From a bacterium (GTDB lineage Bacteria > Patescibacteriota > Microgenomatia > Daviesbacterales > UBA10151): 64,000 bases of DNA. The notes under the pieces are model-generated. The model was not told the origin of the DNA. It saw only the letters and a list, made by a program, of their open reading frames with translations, and made no database searches. Both the position numbers and the translations under genes were made by a program. The stretch lies in NCBI GenBank assembly GCA_021790255.1, contig JAJYIE010000003.1:68-64067 (forward strand), read 5' to 3'. This document shows positions 1,776 through 6,466 of the stretch, piece after piece. The number at the start of each line of letters is the position of its first letter. Position 1 is the stretch's first letter.

Positions 1776-2495
1776 TTAATTCATGATGTAAATATCCACA
1801 AAGTGGCTGGTCCAATTTTTGGTCTGGTCGTTATCAAATCCCAAGTCGACCATGTTGCCATTAACGCCGCCGCCGGTATCACCCGCTAAAGCCGTGCCGT
1901 ACCCAGGGACATAAAATTTGCTGCCCAGTTTAATGACTGAGGGATCAACCGCCGCAATGCCTTTCCCGGCCTGAAGACCTAAAGAGGTCCGTCCGGTGCC
2001 GCTGCATGTTGAGCAAAAAGGCGTATAGTCGGTGGCCCAGACATGTAATTTCTCCCAATAGCTAATCTGTCCGTCAGGGGTATCAAGTGTGTGCCAGACG
2101 ATTTTAGTGCCGCGGGAGATGATTTTATTTGTGGGACTAATGGTTTTAGTGGCCGTAACTTCCCGCTGGTACTCCCGGCCTTGGTAATAAGTTATTTTAA
2201 TTGTGCGGGTTATTTTACCGAGTTCGCCATCCTGAGCGACCGTTTGTGTGCCTGCTTCAGCATTCGGATCATCCTGGTAAACAGTTTTAAAGGGGATATC
2301 TTCACTTTCCTCTGTGAATTTGCTGGTAAAACGTGACTCTGTGGTGACCGGAGGTAGTGAAGCTGCCAGAGTAACGCGAAGATGTGGAGCGGTCAGATCG
2401 GCTGAGGTGTTTTGCCGGCTGATTGTTAAAGCAACCATAACCAAAACCAGTCCGAGAATAGTTTGCACCTTAATGCTGGCAAATCCGTCTAACAT
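1776..2495 (-). CDS. G5 + 3D-domain cell-wall-binding protein (YabE/YocH-like)
   Basis: N-terminal signal/TM. C-terminal 3D-domain signature (TASG...VAVDPSVIKLGSKFYVPGYG...A.DTGGGV.GN.VDL) is preceded by a G5-like segment. Confidence 0.6.
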   Translation of the reverse strand: MLDGFASIKVQTILGLVLVMVALTISRQNTSADLTAPHLRVTLAASLPPVTTESRFTSKFTEESEDIPFKTVYQDDPNAEAGTQTVAQDGELGKITRTIKITYYQGREYQREVTATKTISPTNKIISRGTKIVWHTLDTPDGQISYWEKLHVWATDYTPFCSTCSGTGRTSLGLQAGKGIAAVDPSVIKLGSKFYVPGYGTALAGDTGGGVNGNMVDLGFDNDQTKNWTSHFVDIYIMN

Positions 2496-4372
2496 CAGGC
2501 ATCCAGCCAGTCATCCTCATCGGCACTTATGCTGATATTATCCAGGAACTGTTCCCCTGGGGGACCGGCTATCTGGCTATTACTTTCTATCAAATCCTCT
2601 GGGATGTCAATAAGAAAGCGGGAAATTAAGTTATTGGAACGGGTACCAAAATAAAGCCTTTGGCGGGTGCGGGTTAAAAACAGCAAATTTTTAGCCCTGG
2701 TCAGACCGACATAACAGAGCCGCCGCTCTTCTTCCATCTGGGCCGGGTCTAAAAGACAGCGGGAATGGGGGAATAAACCCTCTTCCATGCCGACAATAAA
2801 CACCACCGGCCATTCCAACCCTTTGGCCTGGTGCAAGGTGGTCAAGGTCACCGCATCTTTGGTACTCTTTTTCAGCTTCTCATCTGAGGAATATTCACTT
2901 TCCACCAGGGCAACATTTTCCAAAAACTGCGCCAGCTGAGGAGTTTGCTCCGCTACCGACCGGATCTCTTTGACGTTTTCCACCCGTGCCTTGCCGAGCT
3001 CGGTTCCGTCATCAATGTACTCCAGATAGTTTGTTTTCTCCACAACTTTGTCCAGCAGTTCCAAAGTGGAATAGTCCGAAGGACTGGTTCCTATCTCAGA
3101 AACTATCTCCCAAAAATGAGCGGCTCGGGTCTTGCCAATTTTTTCGATACGGCTTTTAGAAACTGTATCGGCCGGGTTTAAAATCAGCCGCAGATAGGCA
3201 AGGATGTCTTTGATCTCCTTGCGTTCATAGAAGCGGATACCGCCTATTAGTATATATGGAAGGTGATGTTTTAGAAAAATTTCTTCGAGGATCCGAGACT
3301 GGGCGTTAGTACGGTACAGAACGGCAAAATGAGATAATGGTAGTCCCAACTCGGTAACTTTCTGCACCACAAACTCTGCCTCCTCCTCTTCATTTTTTGC
3401 CTCTGTAACATTGATTTTTTCACCGCGGGGGTTGTCGGTCCAAAGTTTTAGGATAGGATGGGTGGTGTTTTTAGAGATAACAGAGTATGCAGCATCAAGG
3501 ATATTTTGAGTGGAACGGTAGTTTTGCTCCAGGTTGAATACTTTTGCCTGCGGGTAATCGTTTTTGAAGTTGACAATGTTTCGAAAATCGGCGCCGCGGA
3601 ACATATAAATTGACTGGGAAGCATCTCCCACTACGCAAATATTACGGTAGCGGCTAGCCAGCATTTTGGTTAAAAGGTACTGGACGGGGTTTGTGTCCTG
3701 ATACTCATCCACTAAAATATAGTGGAAACGGATTTGGTAGGAAGCTAGGGTAGCCGGATAATTTTGAAAAATCTTAACGACAAGGAGCAGGAGGTCGTCG
3801 AAATCAACGGCTTTGTTTTTTTCCAGGATTTTTTGATATTCCAGGTAAATTTTGGCCACCTGCTCCTGATAAAATCCTCTGGCAAAACGGGGATATTCCA
3901 AGCTACCGATCATCTCGTTTTTGGCTCCAGAGATAGTTTGCCTGATGGCGAAAGGGGAATTTTTTTGGGTAGAAATATCCAGGGCGGCCATAGCCTGTTT
4001 GACGGCATCAATGGAATCATTTTCATCATAGATGGTAAATGATGGCGGCAGGCCGATCAGGTGACCATCCTGACGCAGGATCTTGGCACAGACGCTGTGG
4101 AAGGTTCCCATCGTAGGAAGTGGATTGTAGGTTGCTGGTTGTTGGTTGATAAGGTTGAGGATGCGGGTTTTCATCTCGTTTGCTGCTTTGTTGGTGAAGG
4201 TTAAACAAAGAATGCCTTCCGGAGAAACACCATTGCTTATTAAATAGGCAGCTTTGTAAGTTAATACTCGGGTTTTCCCACTACCTGCTCCTGCCAGAAT
4301 AAGCACCGGACCATCAGTGCTCTTAACTGCTCTCTGTTGGAGATCATTAAGCGATGATAGGTCGACGGTCAT
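2495..4372 (-). CDS. pcrA: ATP-dependent DNA helicase PcrA/UvrD family (SF1)
   Basis: Walker A LILAGAGSGKTRVLT, TFTNKAANEM, Walker B VDEYQDTN, and further UvrD motifs. 625 aa. Confidence 0.85.
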   Translation of the reverse strand: MTVDLSSLNDLQQRAVKSTDGPVLILAGAGSGKTRVLTYKAAYLISNGVSPEGILCLTFTNKAANEMKTRILNLINQQPATYNPLPTMGTFHSVCAKILRQDGHLIGLPPSFTIYDENDSIDAVKQAMAALDISTQKNSPFAIRQTISGAKNEMIGSLEYPRFARGFYQEQVAKIYLEYQKILEKNKAVDFDDLLLLVVKIFQNYPATLASYQIRFHYILVDEYQDTNPVQYLLTKMLASRYRNICVVGDASQSIYMFRGADFRNIVNFKNDYPQAKVFNLEQNYRSTQNILDAAYSVISKNTTHPILKLWTDNPRGEKINVTEAKNEEEEAEFVVQKVTELGLPLSHFAVLYRTNAQSRILEEIFLKHHLPYILIGGIRFYERKEIKDILAYLRLILNPADTVSKSRIEKIGKTRAAHFWEIVSEIGTSPSDYSTLELLDKVVEKTNYLEYIDDGTELGKARVENVKEIRSVAEQTPQLAQFLENVALVESEYSSDEKLKKSTKDAVTLTTLHQAKGLEWPVVFIVGMEEGLFPHSRCLLDPAQMEEERRLCYVGLTRAKNLLFLTRTRQRLYFGTRSNNLISRFLIDIPEDLIESNSQIAGPPGEQFLDNISISADEDDWLDA

Positions 4373-5202
4373 AAAGCAAATCCTTTAATAAACTTTTGAA
4401 ATTTTCGCTCCATATATAATTCTGTGTCGTGGTACATATAGCCGAATAATTTCAAAGAAGCTTTATGCCCGCAACTCAAAGTATAATAAGGAGTCTGGTT
4501 ATTTGAGAACCTAGTCTGTATATTACTCGCATAGAGTTCATGTAAAACGCCTGATAGTATGTTATGTATTCCTTGAGCCATATTTAAACTGGCAGTGTAA
4601 AATATTGTAGCAACTGGGCTGCGATATTTATTTGTGTTTCTAAGAAAGACGCAACCATCTCCGTCAAAATAACCCCTTAGAAAGTGACGAACTAGATTAT
4701 TCGGTATTTTGGGGAAATTTAAGGTTAACCTTTTTCTCTCTGAAATACCAAGTTTTAACAAATCATCAAAGACCACGCGATCACAAATTCTTAAACTAAA
4801 GGATATTTTGTTGTTATTTCTGTGGTTCTCATGCACTGGACCGTTATACTCTAAAGTTAATTTAATTTTTTCTATAATATCCCGATCGTCGCATGCGATA
4901 TGTAATATATGGGATCGACCACTATGGCAAATATTGCCGTCGGCTGCAATAAAACCTAAAGTATAAGCCATATTTGCTGACCATTTCTTGAAGAAGTTGG
5001 AGTTGACGGAGTACTTTTTAACTTTTTGCTGAATAGGTAGATATCTTACTCTTGACTGAATAGAAGCCGGAGTACGCCTAATATCTTTTCCCATTTGCTT
5101 GTATGTAAGCTTATGTACATTTGCTTTTAAAAAATTAATCTCTTGGGAAGTCCATGGGTGAGTGAATTGATTTGGCATATAAGTATTATAACAAAGCCGC
5201 AA
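4369..5202 (-). CDS. free-standing LAGLIDADG homing endonuclease (double-motif)
   Basis: Two LAGLIDADG-type motifs (LGFIAADGNI and LRGYFDGDGCV). AT-rich relative to neighbours. Stop overlaps the pcrA start by 4 nt. Confidence 0.8.
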   Translation of the reverse strand: MRLCYNTYMPNQFTHPWTSQEINFLKANVHKLTYKQMGKDIRRTPASIQSRVRYLPIQQKVKKYSVNSNFFKKWSANMAYTLGFIAADGNICHSGRSHILHIACDDRDIIEKIKLTLEYNGPVHENHRNNNKISFSLRICDRVVFDDLLKLGISERKRLTLNFPKIPNNLVRHFLRGYFDGDGCVFLRNTNKYRSPVATIFYTASLNMAQGIHNILSGVLHELYASNIQTRFSNNQTPYYTLSCGHKASLKLFGYMYHDTELYMERKFQKFIKGFAL

Positions 5203-5237
5203 CCCATATATTTCAGTTTTCTACTCCGTTCGATTGT

Positions 5238-5438
5238 TTACCAGAAAATTCTCGGTTGCGCTCCTTTTTCTTTGACAAGATAAGCCGCCTCGTGGGTTAA
5301 GGCCTTTGTTTTGCCGCTTCCAGCGCCTGCTAAAATCAGGGTCAGACCATCTGCGGCTTTAACAGACTCATGCTGGACGGGATTTAAGTCTGCTAAAAGA
5401 TTAGGGACGTTCATACTGAGCGTAGTCGAAGTGGGCAT
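5238..5438 (-). pseudogene. N-terminal fragment (66 aa) of a UvrD/PcrA-type helicase, truncated right after Walker A
   Basis: LILAGAGSGKTKALTHEAAYLVKEKG is paralogous to the pcrA N-terminus. Terminates after ...PRIFW, about 35 bp upstream of the LAGLIDADG gene. Confidence 0.6.
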
Positions 5439-5718
5439 GGTGGGAGTATCTTAACACCAATGTAAGCCGAGGGCAATTTGGCGAGTTACTTTTTAAGACT
5501 TAATATCGCTGGGGTACCCTTTCCCGGATGAGGGTAGATATCCAAGGCAGCCCTGTGACCCAGTAAAATATTTTCCGGCAGATTGTCTATAAGAAGTTTG
5601 GGTTTAGGTATAGAAACTGGTTAGGGTATAGATATTGGGTATAGGCAACCTAACAGCGAGCCCTATTCCAAAACCTCTCGCCTCCTGTCCGTCTGCTCAG
5701 ATTTAATCAGGACATGTC

Positions 5719-6087
5719 TTAACTGCTCTGCCCTCCGTTGCCATGGGCTGATAAATAGGCACCGGCGTGATCAGACTGATTCCCCTGGGGTTTATCCTGC
5801 GGCAGGAGCAGGATGCCGGAAGATGGGGAGAGGGGAGGGGAATGATCCATAGCTACCTGCGGAATACTAGTCGGCATTTGGATACCGGCTTGGATATTGT
5901 CAGCTGAAACTTTCTGGGTACCAACTTGGCTGCCCCCCATTACCATGAAAAATACCTGTGAGCCAATTTGCGGCGGGATAGTTGCCGGCTTTCCGTCATG
6001 AGTAAACGAGGCCAAAAGTGCCATTAAGGCTGCTAAAAATTGTGGCATATAGTTTTCACCGCTTACTCCTAATGGTTTGCTTAACAA
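5719..6087 (-). CDS. hypothetical small protein (possibly secreted; weak)
   Basis: ORF only. Hydrophobic N-terminal segment. No family recognised. Confidence 0.25.
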   Translation of the reverse strand: MLSKPLGVSGENYMPQFLAALMALLASFTHDGKPATIPPQIGSQVFFMVMGGSQVGTQKVSADNIQAGIQMPTSIPQVAMDHSPPLSPSSGILLLPQDKPQGNQSDHAGAYLSAHGNGGQSS

Positions 6088-6193
6088 TAGTGGCCTATAT
6101 TAGGACGGAAGACAGGAAGAAGTAAGAAAATAGCAAGAAAAGGTCAGGCAGTTTTGATAAATTTAGGCTTTACTTGTTGTTGGCCGCGGTGGT

Positions 6194-6466
6194 ATGATGT
6201 TTCCCGCTATGGTACAACTTTTGGATTTTTGGGCGGAGTGGTGTGGTCCCTGCCAGATTATGAAACCTGTTGTGGAAGAGCTGGAAAGAGAGCTTAAAGG
6301 TAAAGTTGAAGTGAAATCCGTTGATGTGGATGCCGACCCAAATGAAGCTTCCAAATTTGGCATAATGAGTATTCCCACATTTGTTGTCCTAAAAAACGGG
6401 AAAGAGGTTGGCCGCAAAATTGGGGTGACTTCTAAGACAGAGCTCATGAAGTTGGTTAATAGTTAA
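6194..6466 (+). CDS. trxA: thioredoxin
   Basis: Active-site WAEWCGPC and typical thioredoxin length and sequence. Confidence 0.85.
   Translation: MMFPAMVQLLDFWAEWCGPCQIMKPVVEELERELKGKVEVKSVDVDADPNEASKFGIMSIPTFVVLKNGKEVGRKIGVTSKTELMKLVNS

What the first reader, a model, noticed from the sequence alone, without database searches (positions are those of the whole stretch)
4369..5438. Free-standing LAGLIDADG homing endonuclease abutting pcrA/uvrD, with a duplicated helicase Walker-A fragment upstream
Read 5' to 3' on the minus strand, the order is a 66-aa helicase fragment, the homing endonuclease, then the intact helicase.
- The 66-aa ORF (5438..5238) carries the Walker A box LILAGAGSGKTKALTHEAAYL. 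It breaks off exactly where the intact pcrA (4372..2495) continues with GILCLTFTNKAANEM.
- A 277-aa double-motif LAGLIDADG endonuclease (5202..4369) follows. It is AT-rich and its stop overlaps the pcrA start by 4 nt.
- The intact helicase has its own complete, diverged N-terminus (RVLTYKAAYL versus KALTHEAAYL).
- This arrangement looks like the footprint of a mobile homing-endonuclease cassette that invaded the 5' end of the helicase gene and left a duplicated target-gene stub. Alternatively the stub is a decayed paralogue.
- A homing-endonuclease gene in a bacterial chromosomal protein gene, not an intein and not in rRNA, is uncommon.
Basis: partly seen in the sequence, partly recalled or inferred. 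Interest (0 to 1): 0.7.

Follow-up and report, generated by a model that had tools for sequence, protein, structure and literature searches.

The report
Homing endonuclease cassette replaced pcrA start
A selfish LAGLIDADG endonuclease gene, found next to the DNA-repair helicase gene pcrA in many ultra-small (CPR) bacteria, entered this genome carrying a foreign replacement for the start of pcrA and left the original promoter and first 66 codons behind as a dead stub.

Summary

**What is there.** On the minus strand lie a 66-codon UvrD/PcrA stub (5438..5238), an intact double-motif LAGLIDADG gene (5178..4369; GC 0.35 against 0.45-0.51 nearby), and a complete pcrA (4372..2495).

**Origin of the stub.**
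- It is the host's own pcrA 5' end, not an in-situ duplicate. Stub and promoter match HEG-less Daviesbacteria relatives, which show the empty site trx|pcrA.
- The working pcrA's first ~50-90 codons are foreign. They carry a signature (M-x-[ILV]-[DN]-L-S-x-L-N) seen in eight of the nine endonuclease-bearing loci, loosely in the ninth, and in none of the 119 closest pcrA proteins.

**Mobility of the endonuclease family.**
- It always sits directly upstream of pcrA in Microgenomates, at one syntenic site, with patchy presence.
- Other carriers show mosaic pcrA genes and shorter stubs.
- No intron, intein or transposon features were found.

**Reading.** This is a free-standing homing-endonuclease cassette (promoter, endonuclease, ribosome-binding site, replacement pcrA 5' end) that spread horizontally. 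Here it joined illegitimately on its left side.

**Not shown.** Cleavage activity and target site are untested. Strong purifying selection on the endonuclease leaves co-option by the host open.

The parts
5445..5458 (-). Native pcrA promoter-like element (extended -10, GGTGTTAAGATACT) 6-9 nt upstream of the stub ATG
   Evidence: The same GGTGTTAAGATACT lies in front of pcrA in the HEG-less relative L259, and GGTAAGATACT in L260. It is one of only two TGTTA[AT][AG]ATACT sites in the 64 kb window. Promoter function is inferred.
5238..5438 (-). Orphaned native 5' end of pcrA (66-codon stub with Q motif and Walker A). It is a pseudogene fragment.
   Evidence: Pfam PF00580 E=1.5e-10. The first 25 nt match L260 pcrA at 23/25. 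It shares the Daviesbacteria-type MPTS..LL.DLNP.Q and GKTKALTH..EK features. It deviates at 5 of 31 columns that are >=90% conserved in 116 native proteins, which deviate at 0.65 on average and 3 at most. Identity to natives is 63-66% at nucleotide level but only 60-63% at amino-acid level; natives compared with each other give 63% and 78%.
5203..5237 (-). Junction spacer between the end of native homology and the conserved cassette leader
   Evidence: No similarity to native pcrA or to the spacers of other HEG+ loci. This is where the illegitimate joint must lie.
5179..5201 (-). Conserved cassette leader TGCGGCTTTGTTATAATACTTAT (extended -10-like), directly before the endonuclease start codon
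   Evidence: GCAGCTTTGTTATAATACTATA directly precedes the ATG/GTG in all seven HEG+ loci compared, and also in L261. L092 has a related TAAAAT element. A leaderless promoter is inferred.
4369..5178 (-). Free-standing LAGLIDADG homing endonuclease gene (269 aa): N-terminal three-helix HTH-like domain plus two LAGLIDADG domains
   Evidence: Pfam LAGLIDADG_3. PHROG 4645 'endonuclease' E=1.5e-45, and residues 8-56 hit phage HTH regulator families. Both motif aspartates and 22 columns are invariant in 32 homologues. AlphaFold model pLDDT 91.5. Foldseek probability 1.0 to I-SceI, I-AniI, PI-PfuI and I-OnuI.
4381..4386 (-). Shine-Dalgarno-like AAAGGA for pcrA, embedded in the endonuclease 3' end
   Evidence: A GAAGG/AAGGA sits 8-10 nt before the pcrA ATG in the seven HEG+ loci shown; in L092 it lies further upstream. 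Native pcrA genes lack it and have a TATAAT-like box 4-9 nt from the ATG instead. Function is inferred.
4102..4372 (-). Donor-derived (xenologous) 5' segment of the working pcrA. The right-hand crossover lies somewhere between codons ~50 and ~90.
   Evidence: Maximum chi-square breakpoints fall at residues 48-87 with p<=0.001 for many triplets. Nucleotide identity to Curtissbacteria-type L003 is 64-73% over residues 1-70 and then 43-50%. Identity to native L259/L260 rises from 54-62% to 67-77% after residue ~100.
2495..4372 (-). Complete, mosaic pcrA/uvrD helicase gene
   Evidence: PF00580 1-271 of 271, UvrD_C, and TIGR01073 pcrA E=3.5e-206. 60-71% identical to 119 Daviesbacteria PcrA proteins.
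5439..6193 (.). Extra ~750 nt between thioredoxin and the stub, including a 122-aa ORF (6087..5719, minus). It has no counterpart in the closest relatives. It is context, and it is not shown to belong to the cassette.
   Evidence: The trx-pcrA spacer is only ~85-100 nt in L259/L260, and only the last ~20 nt are alignable. orf122 has no Pfam, NCBIfam or PHROG hit.

Best explanation
The locus records the arrival of a free-standing LAGLIDADG homing-endonuclease cassette at the 5' end of pcrA in a Daviesbacteria-like (Microgenomates, CPR) genome.

**The cassette.** It consists of a short conserved leader with an extended -10-like box, the endonuclease gene, a ribosome-binding site inside the endonuclease 3' end, and a replacement pcrA start that overlaps or abuts the endonuclease stop.

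**How it entered.** It came from a different Microgenomates lineage.
- On the right it recombined homologously inside pcrA, between codons ~50 and ~90. The working helicase is therefore a mosaic: a foreign 5' end joined to a native body.
- On the left it joined illegitimately to native codon ~66. This stranded the native promoter and first 66 codons as a non-functional stub that is now decaying.

**Inferred mechanism.** The endonuclease cuts endonuclease-free pcrA alleles in the 5' part of the gene. Repair from a carrier copy then brings in the endonuclease together with the flanking pcrA codons (intronless homing with co-conversion). In the window the left side was sealed by end joining or by homology-facilitated illegitimate recombination, because the donor's upstream flank was too diverged.

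**Shown:** the anatomy, the native origin of the stub, the foreign origin of the working 5' end, the family-wide linkage to pcrA, the patchy distribution, and mosaics in other carriers.

**Inferred:** DNA cleavage, the target site, the promoter and ribosome-binding-site roles, and which repair pathway made the left joint.
For: **1. Empty site.** The closest relatives L259 and L260 (pcrA 70-71% identical) have LytR-TIM-DNA_binding_1-trx | pcrA-G5/3D-SurA_N, with an 85-100 nt spacer, no endonuclease and no stub.

**2. The stub is native.**
- Its promoter box and first 25 nt match L259/L260.
- All 119 closest PcrA proteins start MP..LL.DLNP.Q..AV...GKTKALTH, as the stub does.

**3. The working 5' end is foreign.**
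- The signature M-x-[ILV]-[DN]-L-S-x-L-N occurs in eight of the nine HEG+ loci and, in looser form (MEFNLDNLN), in L092. It occurs in 0 of 119 natives.
- Mosaic tests give p<=0.001 with a break at residues 48-87.
- The nucleotide identity profile switches partner at about residues 55-100.

**4. The family behaves as a mobile element.**
- There are 646 homologues. All nine loci examined place it directly upstream of pcrA at the same syntenic site.
- HEG+ and HEG- loci interleave on the pcrA tree.
- Pairwise distances of pcrA and TIM correlate (Spearman 0.86). Endonuclease distances correlate with neither (0.33 and 0.19).
- L005 and L254 are mosaic at residues 75-88 relative to their HEG-less sister L012 (p=0.001).
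- Shorter native stubs lie upstream of the endonuclease in L005, L254 and L261 (10 codons; 89-93% nt identity to L012 for L005 and L254), in L252 and L256 (decayed), and in L008 (~5 codons).

**5. The endonuclease looks active.** Both catalytic Asp residues are invariant. The fold matches double-LAGLIDADG nucleases. pN is far below pS.

**6. Composition.** Endonuclease GC is 0.30-0.37 whatever the host GC. The contrast is largest in the window.

**7. Other element types are not supported.** No group I/II intron signal, no Hint/intein domain, and no terminal repeats.
Against: - No cleavage assay exists and the target site is unknown.
- The junctions do not all point to one cut site. The window's left joint is at pcrA-numbering codon ~56, yet L008's right junction is at ~17-23. 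At least one junction was therefore not made directly at a break, or was later reshaped by recombination.
- Synonymous sites between endonuclease copies are saturated (pS 0.7-0.85). No recent transfer is sampled.
- The endonuclease's non-synonymous divergence is lower than that of pcrA across deep host splits (L008-L252: Ka 0.21 against 0.42). All nine copies examined are intact. That pattern also fits long-term selection for a host function.
- The phylogenetic comparison rests on only seven taxa and neighbour-joining trees.
Confidence: 0.7

Rival explanations
1. The LAGLIDADG protein is a co-opted host gene, for example a regulator or nuclease partner of PcrA that is co-expressed with it. The endonuclease-pcrA unit moved between lineages by ordinary horizontal transfer and recombination, and the endonuclease did not drive that movement. 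On this view the stub is a by-product of xenologous replacement of pcrA's 5' end.
For: - The pair is strictly linked with a conserved stop/start overlap, and a ribosome-binding site sits inside the endonuclease 3' end.
- All nine copies examined are intact, and 22 alignment columns are invariant.
- pN is far below pS, and Ka is lower than for pcrA and TIM across deep splits.
- Synonymous sites are saturated, so no recent spread is sampled.
- An N-terminal HTH-like domain matches phage transcription-regulator families.
Against: - Both catalytic aspartates are invariant, unlike the known domesticated LAGLIDADG protein WhiA (from general knowledge).
- The gene is absent from the 119 closest PcrA lineages by the N-terminal proxy and from nine HEG-less loci at the same syntenic site.
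- Its distribution on the pcrA tree is interleaved.
- pcrA 5' segments were repeatedly co-transferred and orphaned stubs recur. That is the footprint expected of break-initiated gene conversion next to the endonuclease.
- GC is persistently low.
Confidence: 0.2
2. The stub is a decayed paralogue or the remnant of an in-situ tandem duplication of pcrA, unrelated to the endonuclease.
For: Two UvrD N-termini lie about 1 kb apart on the same strand.
Against: - The two copies are only 51-57% identical at amino-acid level and 53% at nucleotide level. Each is closer to a different lineage: the stub to Daviesbacteria natives, the working 5' end to the Curtissbacteria/HEG+ type.
- Relatives have a single pcrA at this site.
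- No other pcrA-like sequence occurs in the window.
- Stubs recur only in endonuclease-bearing loci.
Confidence: 0.03
3. The stub and the downstream helicase are exons of one gene. A group I/II intron or an intein containing the endonuclease separates them.
For: The stub stops just where motif Ia would begin. CPR genomes are rich in LAGLIDADG-bearing introns in rRNA and tRNA genes (PMC11270868, PMC13011429).
Against: - No intron family is detected at gathering score in the window, or at E<=10 in 3900-5800.
- The downstream gene has its own complete N-terminus, start codon and Walker A.
- The endonuclease is a separate ORF in a different arrangement, with no Hint/intein domain.
- The same cassette in eight other loci has a tiny stub or none.
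Confidence: 0.02

Closest known systems
Free-standing homing endonucleases of T4-like phages (seg and mob genes) and cyanophage F-CphI: 'intronless homing' with co-conversion of flanking markers (PMC2988022, PMC2790892, PMC3984707, PMC6083498)
   Same: - The endonuclease gene is not inside an intron or intein and sits next to a conserved essential gene.
- Its presence is patchy among relatives at one syntenic site.
- Flanking host-gene sequence is transferred together with the endonuclease, giving mosaic neighbours.
   Different: - The host is a bacterial (CPR) chromosome rather than a phage.
- The enzyme is a LAGLIDADG with an N-terminal HTH-like domain. The phage examples are GIY-YIG or HNH enzymes, and F-CphI uses an Endo VII catalytic motif (PMC6083498).
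- The cassette supplies the leader, the ribosome-binding site and the first codons of its neighbour.
- Orphaned stubs of the target gene remain.
- Cleavage has not been demonstrated.
Free-standing LAGLIDADG/GIY-YIG ORFs in fungal mitochondria that are accompanied by partial duplications of the adjacent gene's end, for example C-terminal duplications of cob and atp6 flanked by endonuclease ORFs in Endoconidiophora (PMC6279837). From memory: Allomyces atp6 (Paquin et al. 1994) and the rps3-embedded I-OnuI/I-LtrI (Sethuraman et al. 2009).
   Same: The endonuclease enters a protein-coding gene without destroying it, because a replacement gene end travels with it. The displaced native end stays behind as a duplicate fragment.
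   Different: - Those cases involve 3' ends of organellar genes. This one involves the 5' end, including promoter and start codon, of a bacterial chromosomal helicase gene.
- Here the element takes over transcription and translation initiation of the host gene.
Monomeric double-motif LAGLIDADG endonucleases (I-SceI, I-AniI, I-DmoI, I-Tsp061I/2DCH, PI-PfuI endonuclease domain; Pfam PF14528; PHROG 4645)
   Same: - Two LAGLIDADG motifs with the metal-binding Asp are present.
- The predicted fold has two alpha-beta-beta-alpha-beta-beta-alpha halves.
- The best sequence match among solved structures is 2DCH, E=3.4e-8.
   Different: - Sequence identity to solved structures is only 12-19%.
- There is an extra ~60-residue N-terminal three-helix domain.
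- It is neither intron- nor intein-encoded.
Inteins with LAGLIDADG domains in PcrA/UvrD of related Daviesbacteria (P0298, P0302, P0304)
   Same: The same host gene in the same lineage is targeted by LAGLIDADG-type selfish elements.
   Different: Those are in-frame inteins with splicing domains, located at the Walker A and motif III sites. Their endonuclease domain is at most 25% identical to this protein.

Membership tests
LAGLIDADG homing endonuclease, monomeric double-motif type (PF14528) | Two LAGLIDADG motifs, each ending in a conserved acidic metal-binding residue | tested here: met
   The motifs are LGFIAADGN and RGYFDGDG. D80, G81, D172, G173, D174 and G175 are invariant in 32 family members. 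Pfam LAGLIDADG_3 E=6.8e-13, above the cut-off.
LAGLIDADG homing endonuclease, monomeric double-motif type (PF14528) | Pseudo-dimeric alpha-beta-beta-alpha-beta-beta-alpha fold | tested here: met
   The AlphaFold model has pLDDT 91.5 and two helix-plus-four-strand halves. Foldseek probability is 1.0 to I-SceI, I-AniI, PI-PfuI and I-OnuI, with TM 0.45-0.57.
LAGLIDADG homing endonuclease, monomeric double-motif type (PF14528) | Site-specific double-strand cleavage of a long (~20 bp) target | not testable with these tools
   This needs a biochemical assay. The target site is not identified.
Free-standing homing endonuclease / intronless homing | The endonuclease ORF is not embedded in a self-splicing intron or an intein | tested here: met
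   No Rfam intron at gathering score or at E<=10. The ORF is separate, with its own start and stop. No Hint/intein domain.
Free-standing homing endonuclease / intronless homing | Presence/absence polymorphism at one homologous site among related genomes | tested here: met
   Nine HEG+ loci and nine HEG-less loci share the LytR-TIM-(trx)-pcrA synteny. The two states interleave on the pcrA tree.
Free-standing homing endonuclease / intronless homing | Co-conversion of flanking host sequence with the endonuclease gene | tested here: met
   pcrA is mosaic in the window (break at residues 48-87, p<=0.001), in L005/L254 (residues 75-88, p=0.001) and in L008 (~17-23). The N-terminal signature is shared by eight of nine HEG+ loci and, loosely, by L092.
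Free-standing homing endonuclease / intronless homing | The endonuclease cleaves the endonuclease-less allele near the insertion site, and the carrier allele is immune | not testable with these tools
   This is inferred only. The candidate regions (the Q-motif codons and the 5' edge of motif Ia) are not resolved by the junction data.
Group I/II intron-encoded endonuclease | A ribozyme structure flanks the ORF, and the exons splice to restore the host gene | tested here: not met
   No intron covariance-model hit. The downstream pcrA is complete on its own.
Intein | An in-frame insertion with Hint splicing blocks inside the host protein | tested here: not met
   The endonuclease is a separate ORF without a Hint domain. 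True inteins occur at other sites in related PcrA proteins.
WhiA-type domesticated LAGLIDADG regulator (one JGI record names a homologue this way) | Loss of the catalytic acidic residues and a C-terminal HTH domain | tested here: not met
   The catalytic Asp residues are invariant. The HTH-like domain is N-terminal. No WhiA family hit in Pfam or NCBIfam. The WhiA features are taken from general knowledge.
Transposon / insertion sequence | Terminal inverted repeats, target-site duplication, and a transposase | tested here: not met
   Only short chance-level repeats occur in 4000-6300. No transposase domain is present.

The most novel reading that the evidence does not exclude
The cassette may be more than a homing endonuclease parked beside pcrA. 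It may be a 'gene-start replacement' element that entrenches itself.

- It cuts pcrA off from its native leaderless promoter.
- It supplies the only remaining leader, ribosome-binding site, start codon and first codons of an essential helicase.
- Deleting the endonuclease alone would therefore silence pcrA, so the element is hard to lose.

This would explain three observations. Every copy examined is intact. The protein evolves more slowly than PcrA itself. The element persists in genome-reduced CPR bacteria.

A stronger form is that the endonuclease has also become a working partner or regulator of PcrA.
Probability: 0.25. Interest if true: 0.75.

Novelty: new variant of a known kind. Interest (0 to 1): 0.62.

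Why it matters
- Free-standing homing endonucleases are documented mainly in phages and organelles. A large LAGLIDADG family tied to the 5' end of one essential chromosomal gene across CPR bacteria extends intronless homing to bacterial chromosomes.
- The family shows how a selfish gene can enter an essential gene at its start without killing the host, by carrying a replacement start.
- The window is the most informative example found. It keeps 66 native codons and the native promoter, so the donor and recipient parts can be told apart.
- The family offers a testable route to new meganuclease specificities against a conserved helicase sequence.
- It is also a marker of gene flow between Microgenomates lineages.
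- No paper in the searched library describes it.

Tried and rejected
1. **Motif Ia immunity idea.** I first thought carrier alleles had mutated TFTNKAANEMKER while HEG-less alleles had not. This was ascertainment bias: the genome scan used the peptide pattern NKAANEMK. Unbiased native PcrA proteins vary at these positions. Dropped.
2. **Leader versus motif Ia DNA.** The conserved endonuclease leader shows an inverted similarity to motif Ia DNA (pair I3). This could have meant an operator resembling the target. It is not consistently the best match, and it beat shuffles in only one of nine loci. Dropped.
3. **'Truncated' homologues as decay.** Homologues of ~200 and ~238 aa looked like decaying copies. 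L261 and L256 are full-length ORFs: L261 starts at a GTG, and in both the gene caller chose a downstream start. They are not evidence of decay.
4. **Pattern-based scans.** The metagenome and viral scans with the endonuclease alignment saturated on generic LAGLIDADG motifs. They returned mostly 28-38% identical phage and other endonucleases without pcrA nearby. Only L092 (44% identical) was informative.
5. **Exhaustive search with the stub.** No close relative was found (at most ~65% identity), so the stub cannot be traced to a sampled donor. Its native origin was established from lineage-diagnostic features and promoter identity instead.
6. **Dating by Ks.** Synonymous sites are saturated in every pair.
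7. **Other element types.** Intron, intein and transposon readings were all tested and not met.
8. **A single cut site.** The junctions could not be reconciled with one cleavage position.


Full report
**1. The observation**

Reading the minus strand 5' to 3', the region holds three features.
- A 66-codon ORF lies at 5438..5238.
- A LAGLIDADG ORF follows. It runs 5202..4369 from a TTG. The ATG at 5178 (269 aa) is the start used by gene callers and by all homologues.
- A 625-codon helicase gene lies at 4372..2495. Its ATG overlaps the endonuclease TGA (ATGA).

Profile searches confirm the identities.
- The stub matches positions 1-46 of UvrD-helicase PF00580 (E=1.5e-10).
- The middle ORF is LAGLIDADG_3 (E=6.8e-13).
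- The helicase covers PF00580 1-271 plus UvrD_C, and it is nearest NCBIfam pcrA.

The stub is 56% identical to the helicase N-terminus over 48 residues. The endonuclease is AT-rich: GC 0.35, against 0.46 for pcrA and 0.51 for TIM. The same arrangement appears in separately assembled ENA and Logan contigs, so it is not an assembly artefact.

**2. Intron, intein and transposon readings do not fit**

- Rfam gives no hit at gathering score anywhere in the 64 kb. At E<=10 in 3900-5800 it gives only two irrelevant sub-threshold hits.
- The endonuclease is a separate ORF without a Hint domain.
- No terminal repeats flank it.

**3. The endonuclease family**

- The protein has 646 homologues. More than a hundred are 45-64% identical, about 270 aa long, and come from Microgenomates/Patescibacteria.
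- In an alignment of 32 members, both LAGLIDADG motifs (LGFIAADGN, RGYFDGDG) and their aspartates are invariant.
- The AlphaFold model (pLDDT 91.5) shows an N-terminal three-helix domain followed by two alpha-beta-beta-alpha-beta-beta-alpha halves.
- It matches I-SceI, I-AniI, PI-PfuI and I-OnuI with probability 1.0.
- By sequence, the best solved relative is the archaeal enzyme 2DCH.
- PHROG 4645 'endonuclease' matches at 1.5e-45. The first ~55 residues match phage HTH regulator families.
- More distant relatives with the same architecture are common in phage contigs, with no pcrA nearby.

**4. The family is always linked to pcrA at one site, and its presence is patchy**

- I examined nine distinct endonuclease-bearing loci: the window, L003, L005, L008, L252, L254, L256, L261 and L092. 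L092 is only 44% identical.
- In every one the gene lies immediately upstream of pcrA, in the conserved neighbourhood LytR-TIM-(DNA_binding_1-trx)-[HEG]-pcrA.
- Nine Microgenomates loci have the same synteny and no endonuclease. They include Levy-, Curtiss-, Gottesman- and Roizmanbacteria and the two closest relatives of the window.
- Carriers and non-carriers interleave on a pcrA neighbour-joining tree.
- Pairwise distances of pcrA and TIM correlate strongly (Spearman 0.86). Endonuclease distances correlate with neither (0.33 and 0.19).
- Endonuclease GC is 0.30-0.37 whatever the host GC.

**5. What travels with the endonuclease**

- The seven carriers compared, and L261, share a ~22-nt leader, GCAGCTTTGTTATAATACTATA, directly before the start codon. 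L092 has a related TAAAAT element instead.
- They also share a GAAGG-type ribosome-binding site inside the endonuclease 3' end, and a stop/start overlap or abutment with pcrA.
- Eight carriers share a pcrA N-terminus of the form M-x-[ILV]-[DN]-L-S-x-L-N. L092 has the looser MEFNLDNLN.
- HEG-less pcrA genes start differently. They have a TATAAT-like box 4-9 nt before the ATG and no ribosome-binding site.

**6. The stub is the native gene start**

- The 119 closest PcrA proteins (Daviesbacteria, 60-71% identical) all begin MP..LL.DLNP(I/V)Q..AV and continue GKTKALTHRVAYLI.EK.
- The stub begins MPTSTTLSMNVPNLLADLNPVQ and continues GKTKALTHEAAYLVKEKG. The working gene begins MTVDLSSLNDLQ and continues GKTRVLTYKAAYLIS-NG.
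- At DNA level, the stub's promoter box GGTGTTAAGATACT and its first 25 nt match the HEG-less relatives L259 and L260. The match to L260 is 23/25.
- Those relatives show the empty site, with trx and pcrA 85-100 nt apart.
- The stub is decaying.
  - It departs from the native consensus at 5 of 31 strongly conserved columns. The 116 native proteins depart at 0.65 on average and 3 at most.
  - Its nucleotide identity to natives is 63-66%, like that of natives to each other (63%). Its amino-acid identity is only 60-63%, against 78%.
  - A 1-nt deletion ends the frame. With it restored, the stub still reads PENFLV against native PENILV.
- Homology stops at about 5239, just before the TFTNKAA codons.

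**7. The working pcrA is a mosaic**

- Maximum chi-square tests place a breakpoint at residues 48-87 (p<=0.001 for many triplets). The N-terminal part sides with Curtissbacteria/carrier-type sequences. The rest sides with Daviesbacteria natives.
- Nucleotide identity to L003 is 64-73% over residues 1-70 and then falls to 43-50%. Identity to L259/L260 rises from 54-62% to 67-77% beyond residue ~100.
- The same signal occurs elsewhere.
  - L005 and L254 side with other carriers up to residue 75-88, and with their HEG-less sister L012 afterwards (p=0.001).
  - L008 switches at about residue 17-23.

**8. Stubs recur**

- L005, L254 and L261 keep the native promoter and the first 10 codons (MNKDFLKDLN / MQTDFLKELN) upstream of the endonuclease. 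In L005 and L254 these are 89-93% identical in DNA to L012's gene start.
- L252 and L256 keep decayed versions.
- L008 keeps the promoter plus MPNLL.
- L092 has no stub.
- The window's stub is by far the longest, and it is the only one that includes the Walker A box.

**9. Mechanism**

The anatomy above is shown. The process below is inferred.

- The simplest account is intronless homing as described for free-standing endonucleases (PMC3984707, PMC2988022). The endonuclease breaks a HEG-less pcrA in its 5' part. Repair from a carrier copy brings in the endonuclease and the pcrA codons between it and the break.
- When the donor's upstream flank is too diverged to pair, the left side must be sealed without homology. 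That leaves the recipient's promoter and 5' codons as a stub.
- The window fits either of two routes: one-ended repair followed by end joining, or homology-facilitated illegitimate recombination of incoming DNA anchored in pcrA. I cannot tell these apart.
- The cut site is not resolved.
  - The window's stub end and the right junctions in the window and in L005/L254 cluster around motif Ia.
  - L008's right junction (~17-23) and the 5-10-codon stubs point to the Q-motif region.
  - Later recombination could reconcile the two.

**10. What argues for more than a selfish element**

- Synonymous sites between endonuclease copies are saturated (pS 0.7-0.85). pN is only 0.15-0.26.
- Across deep host splits the endonuclease has changed less than pcrA or TIM. 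For L008-L252, Ka is 0.21, against 0.42 and 0.56.
- All copies examined are intact. The apparent truncations were gene-calling artefacts: a GTG start in L261 and a downstream start call in L256.
- This fits continued selection for homing. It also fits entrenchment, because the cassette now provides pcrA's only leader, ribosome-binding site and start. It equally fits co-option by the host.
- I give the co-opted-partner rival 0.2.

**11. Comparison with what is known**

- The closest parallels by mechanism are the phage seg/mob endonucleases and F-CphI (PMC2988022, PMC2790892, PMC6083498).
- The closest parallels by anatomy are fungal mitochondrial endonuclease ORFs accompanied by partial duplications of the neighbouring gene's 3' end (PMC6279837).
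- This case differs in four ways: a bacterial chromosomal host, a LAGLIDADG enzyme with an added HTH-like domain, a 5' rather than 3' gene end, and takeover of the host gene's expression signals.
- Full-text searches found no description of an endonuclease linked to pcrA in CPR bacteria. The published CPR work concerns rRNA and tRNA insertions (PMC11270868, PMC13011429).
- I rate it a new variant of a known kind.

**12. Verdict**

Confidence by element:
- High (~0.85): the stub is the native 5' end, displaced by a horizontally acquired endonuclease cassette that carries a replacement 5' end.
- Moderate (~0.55): the endonuclease itself drove the event by cleavage.
- About 0.7: the combined statement.

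Noticed in passing
Proteins P0298, P0302 and P0304 (relatives of window pcrA 2495-4372): Related Daviesbacteria PcrA proteins carry inteins at two other sites. One (~360 aa) follows residue ~255, at motif III VGD|ASQSIY. The other (~437 aa, with a LAGLIDADG_3 domain) follows residue ~36, at Walker A. pcrA in this lineage is therefore targeted by three different LAGLIDADG-type elements.
   Followed up: partly
window 5439-6193 (orf122 at 6087..5719, minus strand): About 750 nt between thioredoxin and the stub, including a 122-aa ORF with no Pfam, NCBIfam or PHROG hit. It has no counterpart in the closest relatives, where the spacer is 85-100 nt. It may be a second insertion at this locus.
   Followed up: partly
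L261:3250-3800 and L254:2937-4000: In two carriers an extra ORF of unknown function (137 aa and 265 aa) sits between the 10-codon pcrA stub and the endonuclease. In L261 it is preceded by a second copy of the cassette-like leader (GGCTTTGATATAATCATTTTATG). The stub-endonuclease gap looks like a hotspot for added cargo.
   Followed up: partly
window 5445-5458 and 5182-5193; upstream of pcrA in L012-L022, L259 and L260: pcrA in these Microgenomates, and the endonuclease in carriers, have a TATAAT-like (often TGn-extended) box only 4-9 nt from the start codon and no ribosome-binding site. This suggests leaderless transcripts. In carriers, pcrA instead has a ribosome-binding site inside the endonuclease gene.
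   Followed up: partly
whole window 1-64000: No Rfam family, tRNAs included, reaches its gathering score anywhere in the 64 kb.
   Followed up: no
Homologues P0085 and P0107-P0119; loci L256 and L261: Many family members are recorded as 170-240 aa 'truncated' proteins. In the two checked, the ORF is full length and the gene caller chose a downstream start (the true start in L261 is a GTG). One JGI record names a homologue 'WhiA', which the conserved catalytic residues contradict.
   Followed up: yes
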